From positions 1 through 28,651 of the forward strand of contig JAXHTN010000001.1 of assembly GCA_034190145.1 (NCBI GenBank): 28,651 bases of DNA. The letters run 5' to 3'. Of the stretch, positions 6,062-9,930 are shown piece by piece. Positions within the stretch are counted from its first letter, which is position 1, and each line of letters starts with the position of its first letter. This stretch comes from Halobacteriota archaeon (GTDB lineage: Archaea > Halobacteriota > Syntropharchaeia > DAOWMC01). The notes beneath the pieces were generated by a model. That model did not search any database. It saw only the letters and a program-made list of their open reading frames with translations, and was not told the DNA's origin. A program made the position numbers and the translations under genes.

Positions 6062-6856
6062 ATGGATTGGGGAATGAATAATCGTATGTCACGACTGATC
6101 AAATCAAATGGAAGATGCCTCTTTTTACCGATCGATCATGGATACTTTCAAGGGCCAACAAGAAAACTGGAAAAGCCGGGTAAGACGATCGAACCACTCT
6201 TGCCCTACTGTGATGCTTTGTTTGTCACTCGAGGTGTTCTTAGATCCTCGATTGATCCGGTAGATAGTAAACCAATTATTCTTAGAGTCTCAGGTGGGAC
6301 CAGCATGGTAGGAGAAGATCTTGCAAATGAAGGCCTAACCACCTCGATACAGGAGGCTATCAGGCTCAATGTATCTGCTGTGGGAATGTCGATATTTGTT
6401 GGTACAAAATATGAAAAAGAATCTCTACTAAACCTCTCCGAGCTTGTCAACTGGGGTGAGGACTACGGAATACCGGTGATGGCAGTGACTGCCGTTGGTA
6501 AAGAACTTGAAAAGAGAGACGCCAGATATCTTGCACTCTGTAGCAGAATCGCAGCAGAGCTCGGTGCACGTGTTGTCAAGACATATTGGTGCGAGAACTT
6601 TGACAAAGTAGTGGATGGATGTCCTGTTCCGGTAGTGATGGCAGGAGGACCGAAGGTTGATACTGAAAAAGAGGTCTTCGACTTTGTCTTCGACGGCATC
6701 TCAAAGGGTGCAGTCGGCGTAAATCTAGGTAGAAACATATGGCAGAATAAACATCCAGTGCCCATGATTAAAGCCCTCAGAGCCATAATCCATGAAGATG
6801 CCACATCTGATGAGGCAAATGACATCTTTGAGGAGCTCAAGAAGGGTCAAGAGTAA
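6062..6856 (+). CDS. lsrF: LsrF-like 3-hydroxy-5-phosphonooxypentane-2,4-dione thiolase (class I aldolase fold)
   Basis: MDWGM..RMSRL, IDHGYFQGPT, TRGVLRS, LRVSGG, RIAAELGA.VVKTY (catalytic Lys), GCPVPVVMAGG, GVNLGRNIWQ are co-linear with enterobacterial LsrF. AGGAGG SD; TTTTATATAT box upstream. Confidence 0.9.
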   Translation: MDWGMNNRMSRLIKSNGRCLFLPIDHGYFQGPTRKLEKPGKTIEPLLPYCDALFVTRGVLRSSIDPVDSKPIILRVSGGTSMVGEDLANEGLTTSIQEAIRLNVSAVGMSIFVGTKYEKESLLNLSELVNWGEDYGIPVMAVTAVGKELEKRDARYLALCSRIAAELGARVVKTYWCENFDKVVDGCPVPVVMAGGPKVDTEKEVFDFVFDGISKGAVGVNLGRNIWQNKHPVPMIKALRAIIHEDATSDEANDIFEELKKGQE

Positions 6857-6879
6857 ATCTTCTCATTTGAGTGCTACCG

Positions 6880-7539
6880 ATGTCTATTCTGAATAAAGAA
6901 CCGGGTATTATTGTCGCATTTGATATGGAAGATCCTTCCTTTGCAAGGAGTCTAGCACGTGAGTTGAGAGGTGCAAAAGGTAACTTTGCTATAAAGATCG
7001 GAAGGCCACTCGAGATGCAGGTTGGGATCGGTATTACAAGAGAGATTAAGGAGATCTCGGGACTACCGATCATATATGACGGGAAGATTGCGGATATCCC
7101 CTATATAAGTAAGAGGATAGCCGAAAATGCATACGATGCCGGCGCAGATGTCGTTATTGTACACTCATTCGTTGGTAGTGATACCGTAAAAGAACTGATA
7201 GACATCGGTAGAGGCGATGTGATAGTGGTTGTCGAGATGTCACATCCCGGCGCATCAGAATATATGGCAAAGGTCTCGGAAGAGCTGGCAGAAATGGTCC
7301 AAAAGCTTGGTGCTGATGGCGTAGTCCTTCCTGCGACGAGGCCCGAGAGGGTGAAGAGATTATCATCCATCTTCACCGATGCTTATGTGATCTCTCCCGG
7401 TGTAAAGGCACAGGGAGCAAAGGTTGGAGATGCAATAGCAAATGGGGCGGACTACGAGGTTATTGGTAGGGCAATCTATGAAGCCAATGAACCAAAAGAT
7501 GCTGCGGAAGAATTTTACGAGGAGATATCAGAGATATAG
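6880..7539 (+). CDS. pyrF: Orotidine 5'-phosphate decarboxylase
   Basis: IIVAFD, IKIG, DGKIADIP (DxKxxD), VVEMSHPG, PATRPER, SPGVKAQG, VIGRAIY. Start 6880 or 6871. Confidence 0.95.
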   Translation: MSILNKEPGIIVAFDMEDPSFARSLARELRGAKGNFAIKIGRPLEMQVGIGITREIKEISGLPIIYDGKIADIPYISKRIAENAYDAGADVVIVHSFVGSDTVKELIDIGRGDVIVVVEMSHPGASEYMAKVSEELAEMVQKLGADGVVLPATRPERVKRLSSIFTDAYVISPGVKAQGAKVGDAIANGADYEVIGRAIYEANEPKDAAEEFYEEISEI

Positions 7540-7562: not shown

Positions 7563-8858
7563 ATGCTTACAAGAGAAGAGGTTTCAAAGATTTTGCTTGA
7601 AGTCGGTGCGGTAAGCTTCAACTTGAGAAATCCGTTCAAGTATTCATCAGGAATTTTGACTCCGATACAGATCGATTGCAGCTTCTTGGAATCTTTTCCC
7701 GAAGAGAGAAGTAGAATCATAAATACAACTCTCGGATTTATCGAGGATATTAATGAGGAGATCGATGTAATTGTTGGATGTGGTCCGTCCGCAATTCCAC
7801 TTGCAACGCACATTGCATCACATCTCAAGTTAAAGATGGTATATGTAAGGGCCTCAAAGAAGGAGTATGGTAAGGAGAAGCAGATAGAAGGAACCATACC
7901 TGAGAATAGCTCTGTCTTACTCGTATGTGACGAAGTGTCTGCAAGAGATGACATTCCGATAAGTATCGAAGCACTAAAGGGACGCAATGCAAGGATAGTC
8001 CACTGCCTCACAATATTCAACTACAATCTTGGAATTCAAGAAAAGCTTCTTGAGCAAGAGAGAATTTCTCTACACAGCCTGACAGACCTTGAGACACTTC
8101 TTGACGTTGCTTATAAAGAAGAAAAGATCTCAGATGGCGATCTAAAGGACGTGAAAAAGTGGGTGAAGGGGCCTGAAGAATGGAGCAAGAACTGGAAAGA
8201 AAATAGAACGCCCATCATCTTAAAGAGTAGTGGTAGGGATGTAGCAGAGATACTCCTCGGAATAAAAGCAGTGACTCTCAGCCCTGATGAACCTTACAGG
8301 TATGCCTCGGGGATGCTGAGTCCGATCTATACGGACAACAGGCTCCTTATGTCAAATCCCAAGGAATGGGAATATGTCATCAACTCGTTTGCTGAAGTAG
8401 TTGAGGGTGTTATTGGAAGGGGCGAGATCGATCTCATTGCAGGCACTGCCACTTCCGGTATATCTCATGCCGCTTATCTTGCTGAAATTCTGGGACTGCC
8501 GATGGTATATGTCAAATCTTCACCTGAAGAGCACGGCAAGCGTAACAGAATAGAGGGTAAAATAACCAGCGGTGATAGAGTACTTGTAATAGAAGATCTG
8601 ATAAGTACAGGGACCTCAGCCATCTCTGCTGCAAGAGCTCTCAGAGAATCCGGTGGGATAGTAGATTGGTGCCTTGCAATATTCTCATATCAGATGGAGG
8701 CCTCAAAATCGGCATTTGAAGAAGAGATGATAAACCTCATAACACTCACGGATCTAGCTACATTGATCGATGTCGCAGTTGATAGGGATTACATCAAGTC
8801 TTCGGAGAGAGAGATCATCCTAAACTGGGCAAAAAATCCGAAAGATTGGAAAAAATGA
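7563..8858 (+). CDS. pyrE: Orotate phosphoribosyltransferase, tandem two-domain fusion
   Basis: Two OPRT-like repeats (about aa 1-224 and 225-431). The C domain has YASGMLSPIYTDNR and VLVIEDLISTGTS. The N domain has KYSSG and YVRASKKEYG but a degenerate PRPP motif. Confidence 0.92.
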   Translation: MLTREEVSKILLEVGAVSFNLRNPFKYSSGILTPIQIDCSFLESFPEERSRIINTTLGFIEDINEEIDVIVGCGPSAIPLATHIASHLKLKMVYVRASKKEYGKEKQIEGTIPENSSVLLVCDEVSARDDIPISIEALKGRNARIVHCLTIFNYNLGIQEKLLEQERISLHSLTDLETLLDVAYKEEKISDGDLKDVKKWVKGPEEWSKNWKENRTPIILKSSGRDVAEILLGIKAVTLSPDEPYRYASGMLSPIYTDNRLLMSNPKEWEYVINSFAEVVEGVIGRGEIDLIAGTATSGISHAAYLAEILGLPMVYVKSSPEEHGKRNRIEGKITSGDRVLVIEDLISTGTSAISAARALRESGGIVDWCLAIFSYQMEASKSAFEEEMINLITLTDLATLIDVAVDRDYIKSSEREIILNWAKNPKDWKK

Positions 8859-9030: not shown

Positions 9031-9930
9031 TCACCCCTTACAGAATGGTTCTCTATTACTTACAGCCAGTTTAAGCGCATCACGCATCTCAATAAGCGAG
9101 AGTCCATTGACATCAACAAGACCTTCATTACTCAAGAGACACGGTTTCAACTTTCCATCGGACGTCAACCTGAGACGAGTGCAGTTTGCACAGAACTCCG
9201 AGTTGTCCACTGGTCTTACAATCTCAACCTCGGCACCATCCACGAAATATTTTTTCCTATGGTGCATCTCCCTTACAACCACGGAATCGGACTGTGACTT
9301 CAGCACATCCTCTATCTGTACCATATCGAATTGATATTCAGGTATGTTCTTGAAGTCCATGAGTTCGATGATCTGCAAGATCAGGGGCCTTGCCTTAACA
9401 AAGTCTATCATATCCGCTATCTCCGAGTCGTTTATCCCTCGTAAGATGACCATATTCAACTTGACAGGCGTAAGATCAGAATCGATTGCACACTCTATAC
9501 CCTCAAGTACCTTCGATAAAACGCCCTTTTGGGACCCAGTTATGAATTTGTACTTCTCTTCATTTAAAGTATCCATACTGATATTTACTCTATCAAGTCC
9601 TGCATCAGAAAGCCTTGCAGCATAATCGGAAAGCATTGTCCCATTTGTTGTAGCAGAGATCTCGCCAATGGGGGGAAGAGAAGAGATAATATCAACAAAA
9701 TCCTTACGCAAGAGCGGCTCTCCACCAGAAAACTTAACTTTACTGACGCCGAATGAAGAAGCAGCGGTAACAACACGGGAGATGGTATCACTATCCACTT
9801 CAGAACTCCCACCCCTACCTACTTCACCCTCATTATGACAGTAGATGCAGTTCTGATTACATCTGTTTGTTACAGAAATTCTTAGACTTTTGATAGCTCG
9901 GCCGTAGTTGTCTATAAGTCTATCACTCAT
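9031..9930 (-). CDS. moaA: GTP 3',8-cyclase MoaA
   Basis: LIDNYGRAIKSLRISVTNRCNQNCIYCH (CxxxCxxC), GGEPLLR, TTNG, RVNISMDTL, FCANCTRLRLTSDGKLKPCL. Confidence 0.96.
   Translation of the reverse strand: MSDRLIDNYGRAIKSLRISVTNRCNQNCIYCHNEGEVGRGGSSEVDSDTISRVVTAASSFGVSKVKFSGGEPLLRKDFVDIISSLPPIGEISATTNGTMLSDYAARLSDAGLDRVNISMDTLNEEKYKFITGSQKGVLSKVLEGIECAIDSDLTPVKLNMVILRGINDSEIADMIDFVKARPLILQIIELMDFKNIPEYQFDMVQIEDVLKSQSDSVVVREMHHRKKYFVDGAEVEIVRPVDNSEFCANCTRLRLTSDGKLKPCLLSNEGLVDVNGLSLIEMRDALKLAVSNREPFCKG

What the first reader, a model, noticed from the sequence alone, without database searches (positions are those of the whole stretch)
7563..8858. Tandem OPRT fusion with complementary degeneration: a natural single-chain heterodimer
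Known: OPRT is a dimer with shared active sites. The flexible loop (R-x-x-x-K-x-H/Y-G; Arg99/Lys103 in Salmonella) of one subunit closes over the PRPP loop (acidic pair plus TG(G/T)S) of the other. Seen: the N domain keeps the loop (YVRASKKEYG) but has lost the PRPP motif (LVCDEVSARDD) and the YxDxR motif (QIDCS). The C domain keeps VIEDLISTGTS and IYTDNR but has lost the loop residues (YVKSSPEEHG; R to K, K to E). Inference: exactly one composite site remains (N loop over C pocket), and the dead pocket may be free for allosteric nucleotide binding.
Basis: partly seen in the sequence, partly recalled or inferred. Interest (0 to 1): 0.72.

Follow-up and report, generated by a model that had tools for sequence, protein, structure and literature searches.

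The report
Fused double OPRT, one working site
The genome's only gene for the pyrimidine enzyme OPRT joins two copies in one chain, each having lost the opposite half of the shared active site, and over 100 uncultured archaea and bacteria carry the same undescribed design.

Summary
ORF 7563..8858 (+) encodes 431 aa made of two full-length Bacillus-type OPRT domains that are 36% identical to each other.

- **N domain:** keeps the flexible-loop Arg and Lys (R96, K100; E. coli R99, K103). Its PRPP loop is degenerate (CDEVSARDD).
- **C domain:** keeps the hood (SPIYTDNR) and PRPP loop (EDLISTGTS). Its loop has K318 and E322 in place of Arg and Lys.
- **Family:** about 90-105 fused homologues show the same pattern. 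Loop Arg/Lys is 100%/100% in N halves and 2%/0% in C halves. The first PRPP acidic residue is 0% in N halves and 100% in C halves.
- **Origin:** N halves and C halves each form one clade, so the fusion arose once. It then spread patchily through archaea (Methanoperedens, DPANN, Bathyarchaeota and Helarchaeota MAGs) and bacteria (Spirochaetia, Pirellulales).
- **Role:** it is the only OPRT in this 90%-complete genome and sits 23 nt after pyrF, so it is the working PyrE.
- **Geometry:** a complex model places the two halves on the canonical OPRT dimer interface. This may reflect memory of solved dimers. Intra-chain pairing is not proven (AF2 pTM 0.62).
unsupported. Acidic residues replace the phosphate-binding loop of the dead pocket.

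I found no paper or solved structure of this design. It is a new variant of a known enzyme. The scan has not reported it on other DNA.

The parts
6871..7539 (+). pyrF (OMP decarboxylase), 222 aa, ending 23 nt before the tandem pyrE; probable operon partner
   Evidence: PF00215 at E 5e-34. A GGTGA Shine-Dalgarno-like motif lies between its stop and the pyrE ATG.
7563..8858 (+). Tandem OPRT-OPRT gene (431 aa plus stop), the only OPRT of the genome
   Evidence: Whole protein scores 317 bits on NF001729 (cut-off 245).
7563..8189 (+). N-terminal OPRT domain (aa 1-209): loop donor with a dead PRPP pocket
   Evidence: NF001729 147 bits. TIGR00336 78.8 bits, below its cut-off of 106.8. Best PDB match 4ohc.
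7644..7682 (+). N hood motif SSGILTPIQIDCS (aa 28-40). Tyr to Gln and Arg to Ser here; most homologues keep SPIYTDCR
7842..7892 (+). N flexible loop YVRASKKEYGKEKQIEG (aa 94-110). R96 and K100 correspond to E. coli R99 and K103. R96, K100, G103, E109 and G110 are invariant in 87 N halves
   Evidence: Loop length is 16 in 90 of 90 N halves.
7914..7958 (+). N degenerate PRPP loop VLLVCDEVSARDDIP (aa 118-132). First acidic residue lost; the TGGS phosphate loop is replaced by ARDD
   Evidence: In N halves: position 124 is Ser 67% / Thr 16%, position 130 is Glu 68%, position 132 is Asp 73%.
8190..8231 (+). Junction NWKENRTPIILKSS (aa 210-223). No added linker: the C-terminal tail of copy 1 runs straight into the N-terminal head of copy 2
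   Evidence: Alignment. AF2 pLDDT is 65 for the block aa 211-220. Unitigs cross this stretch without indels.
8232..8855 (+). C-terminal OPRT domain (aa 224-431): catalytic pocket with a degenerate loop
   Evidence: NF001729 174 bits. TIGR00336 110.2 bits, above its cut-off of 106.8. Best PDB matches 3dez, 3m3h and 2aee at E 1e-46 to 1e-49.
8304..8342 (+). C hood motif ASGMLSPIYTDNR (aa 248-260), canonical
   Evidence: Tyr, Asp and Arg are each 100% in 92 C halves.
8508..8558 (+). C degenerate loop YVKSSPEEHGKRNRIEG (aa 316-332). K318 replaces the Arg and E322 replaces the Lys
   Evidence: C halves have Lys 81% / Arg 2% at position 99 and Lys 0% at position 103. Loop length varies in 12 of 92 C halves.
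8580..8624 (+). C PRPP loop VLVIEDLISTGTSAI (aa 340-354), canonical
   Evidence: E344 100%, D345 100%, G350 95% and S352 100% in C halves.

Best explanation
This is the organism's working orotate phosphoribosyltransferase (PyrE), built as a fused pseudo-heterodimer. Ordinary OPRT is a homodimer with two shared sites. Each site is a PRPP/orotate pocket of one subunit, closed by the Arg/Lys-bearing flexible loop of the other subunit. Here two Bacillus-type OPRT copies are joined head to tail. The C copy keeps the pocket (hood SPIYTDNR, PRPP loop EDLISTGTS) but its own loop has lost the catalytic Arg and Lys. The N copy keeps a perfect loop (R96, K100, Y102, G103, IEG) but its pocket is dead. One composite site therefore remains: the N loop closing over the C pocket. 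The reciprocal site (C loop over N pocket) has decayed. The likely history is one duplication and fusion, then decay of one of the two shared sites. That loss may have been tolerated because homodimeric OPRT is reported to show half-of-sites behaviour. The fused gene then moved horizontally among archaea and bacteria and replaced the native pyrE. Shown: the architecture, the reciprocal residue pattern and its family-wide conservation, the single origin, sole-copy status, and the pyrF neighbourhood. Inferred: catalytic competence, one site per chain, and intra-chain rather than inter-chain pairing.
For: - **Two complete OPRT domains.**
- **Residue pattern in 90 N halves, 92 C halves and 100 single-domain OPRTs.** Arg99: 100% / 2% / 97%. 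Lys103: 100% / 0% / 98%. First PRPP acidic residue: 0% / 100% / 99%. Gly130: 8% / 95% / 90%. Ser132: 3% / 100% / 98%. Tyr in the E. coli-156 column: rare (not among the four commonest N residues) / 95% / 97%.
- **Invariant columns in 105 fused proteins.** They are R96, E109 and G110 (N loop) and P254 and D345 (C pocket).
- **The loop survives when the rest decays.** Even the most eroded N halves (Spirochaetia, P0089-P0097, and the triple fusion P0079) keep R...K.HG...IEG while their hood and PRPP loops are unrecognisable.
- **Loop length.** N-loop length is fixed in 90 of 90. C-loop length varies in 12 of 92.
- **Single origin.** N halves form one clade (97*) and C halves form one clade (95*) nested among single-domain OPRTs. 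N-N and C-C pairwise identities correlate with r = 0.79.
- **No free-standing N-like protein.** The one candidate, P0263, is followed by an overlapping second PRT gene.
- **Sole OPRT.** It is the only OPRT hit in this 90%-complete genome, which has pyrB, pyrD and an adjacent pyrF. It is also the sole strong OPRT hit in Methanoperedens BLZ2, an Iainarchaeum MAG and two complete Spirochaetia chromosomes.
- **Purifying selection on both halves.** dN/dS is 0.185 (N) and 0.10 (C), with pyrF at 0.073.
- **Modelled interface.** The complex model of N plus C gives ipSAE 0.88 against a best control of 0.51. That mark was reached by 58 of 80 solved complexes and 2 of 110 mismatched pairs. Runs agree in at least 95% of contacts and the partner pLDDT is at least 88. 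The interface is pseudo-two-fold. By the alignment, N 43-46 against C 312-315 corresponds to E. coli residues 40-43 against 93-96. That lies next to the R44C-D92C inter-subunit disulfide engineered in E. coli OPRT (bioRxiv 10.1101/2025.01.14.632917).
- **Literature.** The loop acts on the adjacent subunit and K103 is essential (PMC10087573).
Against: There are no biochemical data for any member. The single-chain AF2 model has high pLDDT (93.5) but pTM of only 0.62, so the relative placement of the two domains within one chain is not confidently predicted. The complex model may score high from memory of solved OPRT homodimers, and one control reached 0.51. The N pocket is not random decay. Its replacement residues (Ser124, Asp125 at 98%, Glu130, Asp132, Asn in the 156 column) are themselves conserved, which could mean a retained non-catalytic role. 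The genome is 90% complete, so a second pyrE on unassembled DNA cannot be fully excluded.
Confidence: 0.8

Rival explanations
1. The chemistry is the same, but pairing is between chains. Two polypeptides form a domain-swapped dimer (N of chain A with C of chain B, and the reverse), giving two composite sites per dimer of chains rather than an intra-chain pseudo-dimer.
For: AF2 pTM is only 0.62 despite pLDDT of 93.5. The junction is just the concatenated termini with no added linker, and AF2 models it as two helices separated by about 2 residues. That could be too short to reach across a canonical dimer. Burkholderia OPRT entries 4ohc and 9e5g list four or more chains.
Against: No geometry could be extracted to show that the junction cannot span the distance. 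The fusion is strictly conserved with little length variation at the junction, as expected if the chain itself fixes the pairing.
Confidence: 0.2
2. One reading: the dead N pocket, with the degenerate C loop, has become a regulatory or ligand-binding site that modulates the single active site.
For: The N pocket is conserved in its altered form: Ser/Thr124, Asp125 at 98%, Glu130 at 68%, Asp132 at 73%, Asn at 67% in the 156 column. Most N halves still keep the hood Tyr, Asp and Arg. dN/dS of the N half is 0.185, which is purifying.
Against: The glycine-rich 5'-phosphate loop is replaced by acidic side chains, which disfavours nucleotide or PRPP binding. In this window's protein the N hood has decayed further (Q36, S40). 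In Spirochaetia and other distant members the whole N pocket is unrecognisable while the loop persists. Conservation is equally explained by folding and interface constraints: hood residues 38-46 lie in the modelled interface.
Confidence: 0.1
3. The protein is not an enzyme but a PRT-fold regulator (like PyrR, PurR or GfcR), or both sites are dead.
For: PRT-fold regulators exist. There are weak NCBIfam hits to GfcR and PurR models (E 3e-5 and 1e-5, far below their cut-offs).
Against: The C half passes the pyrE TIGR00336 cut-off and keeps every residue that is conserved in single-domain OPRTs apart from its own loop. No DNA-binding domain is present. The gene is the sole OPRT beside pyrF in a genome that has pyrB and pyrD.
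Confidence: 0.03

Closest known systems
Homodimeric Bacillus/Streptococcus-type OPRT (PyrE; PDB 2aee, 3dez, 3m3h/4rv4)
   Same: Each half has the same fold (TM 0.91-0.95 by target, rmsd 1.3-1.9 A). The C half is 36-40% identical and carries the same hood, PRPP loop and C-terminal W..P..W tail. The modelled N:C interface uses the same elements as a two-fold dimer.
   Different: One chain holds two diverged copies. Only one of the two shared sites keeps its catalytic residues. No PDB chain covers both domains (TM by query at most 0.47).
Engineered complementing OPRT heterodimers of Salmonella/E. coli (Ozturk et al. 1995, as cited in bioRxiv 10.1101/2025.01.14.632917; K103 role in PMC10087573)
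   Same: The logic is the same: a subunit with a defective loop and a subunit with a defective pocket together rebuild one active shared site.
   Different: Those are laboratory point mutants of a homodimer mixed in vitro. Here the two defects are natural, fixed in a covalent fusion, and conserved across more than 100 lineages.
UMP synthase fusions (human OPRT-OMPDC 2wns; Leishmania OMPDC-OPRT 3qw4)
   Same: OPRT is fused with a pathway neighbour. One relative, P0079 (701 aa), is OMPDC-OPRT-OPRT, and the window has pyrF immediately upstream.
   Different: UMP synthases carry a single OPRT domain that still homodimerises. None has a second, degenerate OPRT copy.
PRPP synthetase (two tandem type-I-PRT-like domains per subunit; from my own knowledge, Eriksen et al. 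2000)
   Same: It shows an ancient duplication and fusion of a PRT-like fold within one chain, with only one domain keeping the PRPP-type loop.
   Different: The reaction and the domain arrangement differ. The model does not superpose on PRPP synthetase over both domains (3mbi TM 0.24 / 0.35).
Monomeric herpesvirus dUTPase and trypanosomatid 'prozyme' heteromers (from my own knowledge, not tested here)
   Same: The evolutionary principle is the same: an oligomer with shared sites duplicates, and complementary motif loss leaves a live partner and a dead partner with fewer sites.
   Different: These are unrelated folds and chemistry. Prozymes are separate genes, not fusions.

Membership tests
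Orotate phosphoribosyltransferase (PyrE, EC 2.4.2.10; TIGR00336 / NF001729) | Score above the curated family cut-off | tested here: met
   The whole protein scores 316.8 bits on NF001729 (cut-off 245). The C half alone scores 110.2 bits on TIGR00336 (cut-off 106.8). The N half alone scores 78.8 bits, below that cut-off.
Orotate phosphoribosyltransferase (PyrE, EC 2.4.2.10; TIGR00336 / NF001729) | PRPP-binding loop: acidic pair followed by the S/T-T/A-G-x-S/T phosphate loop | tested here: met
   Met in the C half (E344-D345-LISTGTS). Not met in the N half (C122-D123-EVSARDD).
Orotate phosphoribosyltransferase (PyrE, EC 2.4.2.10; TIGR00336 / NF001729) | Flexible catalytic loop with Arg99, Lys103 and His/Tyr105-Gly106 (E. 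coli numbering) | tested here: met
   Met in the N half (R96, K100, Y102, G103). Not met in the C half (K318, E322). The protein as a whole has one good copy of each element.
Orotate phosphoribosyltransferase (PyrE, EC 2.4.2.10; TIGR00336 / NF001729) | Hood residues of the orotate pocket (S-P-I-Y-x-D-x-R in Bacillus-type enzymes) | tested here: met
   The C half has SPIYTDNR. These residues are 100% conserved in C halves and in single-domain OPRTs. The N half has TPIQIDCS.
Orotate phosphoribosyltransferase (PyrE, EC 2.4.2.10; TIGR00336 / NF001729) | Pathway context and necessity | tested here: met
   The gene lies next to pyrF. pyrB and pyrD are present in the genome. No other OPRT was found in the genome.
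Orotate phosphoribosyltransferase (PyrE, EC 2.4.2.10; TIGR00336 / NF001729) | Catalysis of orotate + PRPP to OMP + PPi | not testable with these tools
   Needs an enzyme assay or complementation.
OPRT-type two-fold dimer with trans-acting loops | The two PRT domains pack through helix 3 and the hood, so that each loop reaches the partner's pocket | tested here: inconclusive
   The complex model gives ipSAE 0.88 against a best control of 0.51, with a symmetric interface that maps beside the E. coli 44/92 inter-subunit contact. The pass may come from memory of solved dimers. The single-chain AF2 pTM is 0.62 and no coordinates were available to measure loop-to-pocket distances.

The most novel reading that the evidence does not exclude
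The fused enzyme is an obligate one-site OPRT. Its decayed second site (N pocket plus C loop), which is conserved in altered, acidic form, would then have been repurposed. It could act as a static latch or as a small-ligand or metal sensing site that tunes the live site. That would make this a naturally evolved allosteric OPRT. It would also be a direct natural test of whether the alternating-site (half-of-sites) mechanism proposed for homodimeric OPRT is needed for efficient catalysis.
Probability: 0.12. Interest if true: 0.75.

Novelty: new variant of a known kind. Interest (0 to 1): 0.58.

Why it matters
OPRT is a textbook shared-active-site enzyme and a drug target. Its loop-in-trans mechanism was established with artificial complementing mutants, and half-of-sites or alternating-site catalysis has been proposed for the yeast homodimer (McClard 2006, reference listed in PMC9978035). 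This family is nature's version of the complementation experiment. It is a covalent live/dead pair with exactly one intact site per N:C pair, and it is the sole PyrE in many archaea and bacteria. It offers three things:

- A clean system for asking whether one site alone supports normal turnover.
- A well-resolved example of complementary degeneration after duplication and fusion, with graded decay of the dead site across lineages.
- An annotation lesson: these genes are labelled simply 'OPRT', 'PRT family protein' or even 'UMP synthetase'.

A parallel live/dead tandem design was noted elsewhere in this scan for HisG. This suggests a recurring route in PRPP-using enzymes. I did not check those HisG notes.

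Tried and rejected
- **Structure libraries.** Foldseek against the PDB and the ESM Atlas shape search returned only single-domain OPRT matches.
- **Search with this protein's N half alone.** It found only one distant OPRT because few words were shared. A profile of 87 N halves was needed.
- **Literature searches.** Searches for tandem, duplicated or double OPRT, pseudo-dimer and single-chain terms found nothing relevant. Subscription journals are mostly not covered, so this is not proof that the design is undescribed.
- **Expression.** No RNA holder was listed among public runs, so nothing can be said about expression.
- **Two distinct paralogues rather than a duplication.** I considered that the fusion joined two different OPRT paralogues, because the N half's best PDB hit is the Burkholderia type 4ohc while the C half's is the Firmicutes type. 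The trees place the N clade outside all C and single-domain rows, but on a faster-evolving branch and without a root. This cannot be decided.
- **Assembly chimera or frameshift.** Rejected on the read and unitig evidence and on recurrence in more than 100 assemblies.
- **Another OPRT type hidden in the genome.** Not found. The other PRT-fold genes are two purine-PRT-like proteins, PRPP synthetase and a 481-aa frame that is probably purF.

Full report
**What is there**

The window holds an ORF at 7563..8858 (+) of 431 aa. It starts 23 nt after the stop of pyrF (6871..7539; PF00215, E 5e-34), and a GGTGA ribosome-binding-like motif lies between them. Both halves of the protein match the OPRT equivalog NF001729 over its whole length. 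The N half (aa 1-218) scores 147 bits, the C half (aa 219-431) scores 174 bits, and the whole protein scores 317 bits against a cut-off of 245. On TIGR00336 the C half alone passes the cut-off (110.2 against 106.8) and the N half does not (78.8). The two halves are 36% identical (E 3e-43). Their best solved relatives are Bacillus/Streptococcus-type OPRTs for the C half (3dez, 3m3h, 2aee; E 1e-46 to 1e-49) and Burkholderia 4ohc for the N half.

**Mapping to the known mechanism**

I took E. coli pyrE from NC_000913 and aligned it with 90 N halves, 92 C halves and 100 single-domain relatives.

| E. coli residue | N half (window) | C half (window) |
|---|---|---|
| R99 | R96 | K318 |
| K103 | K100 | E322 |
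| H105 | Y102 | H324 |
| D124 | C122 | E344 |
| D125 | D123 | D345 |
| T128-A132 | SARDD | STGTS |

In OPRT the loop (residues 99-109) closes over the site of the adjacent subunit, and K103 is essential: acetylation lowers kcat 150- to 300-fold (PMC10087573). The two sites are shared 'yin-yang' between subunits, as shown by the complementation experiments of Ozturk et al. 1995 (cited in bioRxiv 10.1101/2025.01.14.632917). The N half therefore has a good loop and a bad pocket, and the C half has a good pocket and a bad loop.

**Family-wide test**

A search of 5.8 billion proteins found about 95 clusters of fused homologues. An exhaustive HMMER search of 1.8 billion representatives added more. 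The reciprocal pattern holds throughout.

| Position (E. coli numbering) | N halves | C halves | Single-domain OPRTs |
|---|---|---|---|
| Arg99 | 100% | 2% (Lys 81%) | 97% |
| Lys103 | 100% | 0% (Glu 38%, Asp 33%) | 98% |
| First PRPP acidic residue (124) | 0% (Ser 67%, Thr 16%) | 100% | 99% |
| Gly130 | 8% (Glu 68%) | 95% | 90% |
| Ser132 | 3% (Asp 73%) | 100% | 98% |

- In an alignment of 105 fused proteins the only invariant columns are R96, E109 and G110 (N loop) and P254 and D345 (C pocket).
- The N-loop segment is 16 residues in 90 of 90 N halves. The C-loop segment varies in length in 12 of 92 C halves.
- In the most eroded N halves the hood and PRPP loop are unrecognisable, yet R...K.HG...IEG survives. 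These are the Spirochaetia members, P0089-P0097 and the triple fusion P0079. This is what one expects if the N half is retained to supply the loop.
The QIDCS version is specific to this lineage.

**Origin and spread**

In FastTree and IQ-TREE trees the N halves form one clade (97*). The C halves form one clade (95*) nested among single-domain Bacillus-type OPRTs. The only 'single' rows that fell inside these clades are truncated fragments of fused proteins (P0149, P0160). N-N and C-C pairwise identities correlate (r = 0.79), and the N half is the more divergent in 72% of pairs. So the fusion arose once and the two halves have travelled together since.

A profile of 87 N halves found no free-standing N-like family. 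The single candidate, P0263, is followed by an overlapping second PRT gene, so it is a split or frameshifted copy.

By record titles, carriers include a Halobacteriota MAG from a tar biofilm (91% identical), Candidatus Methanoperedens BLZ2, DPANN lineages, Bathyarchaeota and Helarchaeota MAGs, Spirochaetia and a Pirellulales MAG. Among 40 relatives of the window's genome only the same-genus genome has the fused form. The two same-family genomes show only weak hits of another OPRT type. This points to horizontal acquisition and displacement of the native pyrE.

**Is it the working enzyme?**

The 90%-complete genome has no other OPRT hit. Its other PRT-fold genes are two purine-PRT-like proteins, PRPP synthetase and a probable purF. 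pyrB and pyrD are present. The fused gene is also the sole strong OPRT hit in Methanoperedens BLZ2, an Iainarchaeum MAG and two complete Spirochaetia chromosomes. Against the 91% relative, dN/dS is 0.185 for the N half, 0.10 for the C half and 0.073 for pyrF. Both halves are under purifying selection, and the N half is somewhat relaxed. Public unitigs cross the junction, and no insertions or deletions were seen, including in strain variants.

**Geometry**

AF2 with the family alignment gives pLDDT 93.5 but pTM 0.62. Each domain superposes on solved OPRTs (TM 0.91-0.95 by target), and no PDB chain covers both domains.

A complex model of the two halves as separate chains scored ipSAE 0.88 against a best control of 0.51. 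That mark was reached by 58 of 80 solved complexes and 2 of 110 mismatched pairs. The runs agree in at least 95% of contacts, and the partner pLDDT is at least 88. This pass may come from memory of solved OPRT dimers, so it shows likeness rather than binding.

The interface is pseudo-two-fold:
- N residues 38-53, 69-96 and 109-112.
- C residues 258-273, 291-316 and 331-334.

By the alignment, the contact of N 43-46 with C 312-315 corresponds to E. coli residues 40-43 against 93-96. That lies next to the R44C-D92C inter-subunit disulfide engineered in E. coli OPRT (bioRxiv 10.1101/2025.01.14.632917). The halves are therefore modelled in the canonical dimer orientation, with the bases of both loops at the interface. 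Whether pairing is within one chain or between two chains is not settled. The junction is only the concatenated termini, with no added linker.

**Interpretation**

The best explanation (about 0.8) is a single-origin fused pseudo-heterodimeric PyrE with one composite site, N loop over C pocket. Half-of-sites behaviour reported for the yeast homodimer may have made loss of one site nearly neutral once the two copies were tied together. That report is McClard 2006, which I verified only as a listed reference in PMC9978035. This step is inference.

The phosphate-binding loop is replaced by conserved acidic residues, and the pocket decays further in this lineage and in distant members. A non-nucleotide role cannot be excluded, because the altered residues are themselves conserved (about 0.1).

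**Novelty**

No paper in the searchable library and no PDB entry describes a tandem OPRT. Database names are generic. The principle, complementary loss after duplication of a shared-site oligomer, is known from other enzymes. I therefore rate this a new variant of a known kind, of solid interest to enzymologists. This scan has not reported the design on other DNA. It has noted an analogous live/dead tandem in HisG, which I did not check.

Noticed in passing
P0079 (701 aa, metagenomic): A triple fusion OMP decarboxylase-OPRT(N-like)-OPRT(C-like). It mirrors the window's pyrF then pyrE order and keeps the same reciprocal pattern: the N loop keeps R...K and the N PRPP loop is 'THMFTADD'; the C loop is 'YAYTKASEQG' and the C PRPP loop is EDLISTGGS.
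   Followed up: partly
P0263 and the next gene on its 5.9-kb Logan contig: The only stand-alone N-like protein found (218 aa, SDIMSTEKDIP, intact loop). The next gene is a 236-aa PRT gene that overlaps it by 17 nt, with pyrF nearby. It is either a genuine two-gene split form or a frameshifted tandem. No DNA could be fetched.
   Followed up: partly
G002, G003 (same family) versus G000, G001: Only the window's genus carries the fused OPRT. Same-family relatives show just weak hits of another OPRT type, and genus g4 in the same class has a single-domain Bacillus-type OPRT. This suggests horizontal replacement of pyrE.
   Followed up: partly
L022 (Pirellulales MAG, 2.6-Mb contig): The N half of this tandem copy is split over two frames with a TAG stop. 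The same genome has an extra short OPRT-like hit (187 aa, E 2e-10). The tandem copy may be a decaying pseudogene, or this may be a long-read sequencing error.
   Followed up: no
L023, L024, L028, L034, L049, L054, L059, L076 (Spirochaetia, several from rumen): The N halves are extremely diverged (about 25% identity, 50-77 bits) while the C halves stay at 42-51% identity. This is the far end of the decay series.
   Followed up: partly
L011:2390-3028 (-): An additional, divergent OPRT-like gene (25% identity to both halves) sits about 1 kb upstream of a tandem OPRT on the opposite strand in an uncultured archaeon.
   Followed up: no
P0282 (325 aa): An OPRT-like protein carries an insert of roughly 110 residues that looks like a partial internal duplication of the helix-3 and loop region. 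It has no Pfam hit at E 0.001.
   Followed up: no
P0155 (1007 aa), P0180 (647 aa), P0157 (1438 aa): Other OPRT fusions turned up in the exhaustive search: dihydroorotase-DHODH-OPRT, dihydroorotase-OPRT, and a multi-GAF histidine kinase with a C-terminal OPRT-like domain.
   Followed up: no
window 6062-6856 (+) and 9031-9930 (-): A DeoC/LacD-family (class I aldolase-like) gene ends 14 nt before pyrF, possibly in the same transcription unit. A MoaA radical-SAM gene converges on the 3' end of the tandem pyrE.
   Followed up: no
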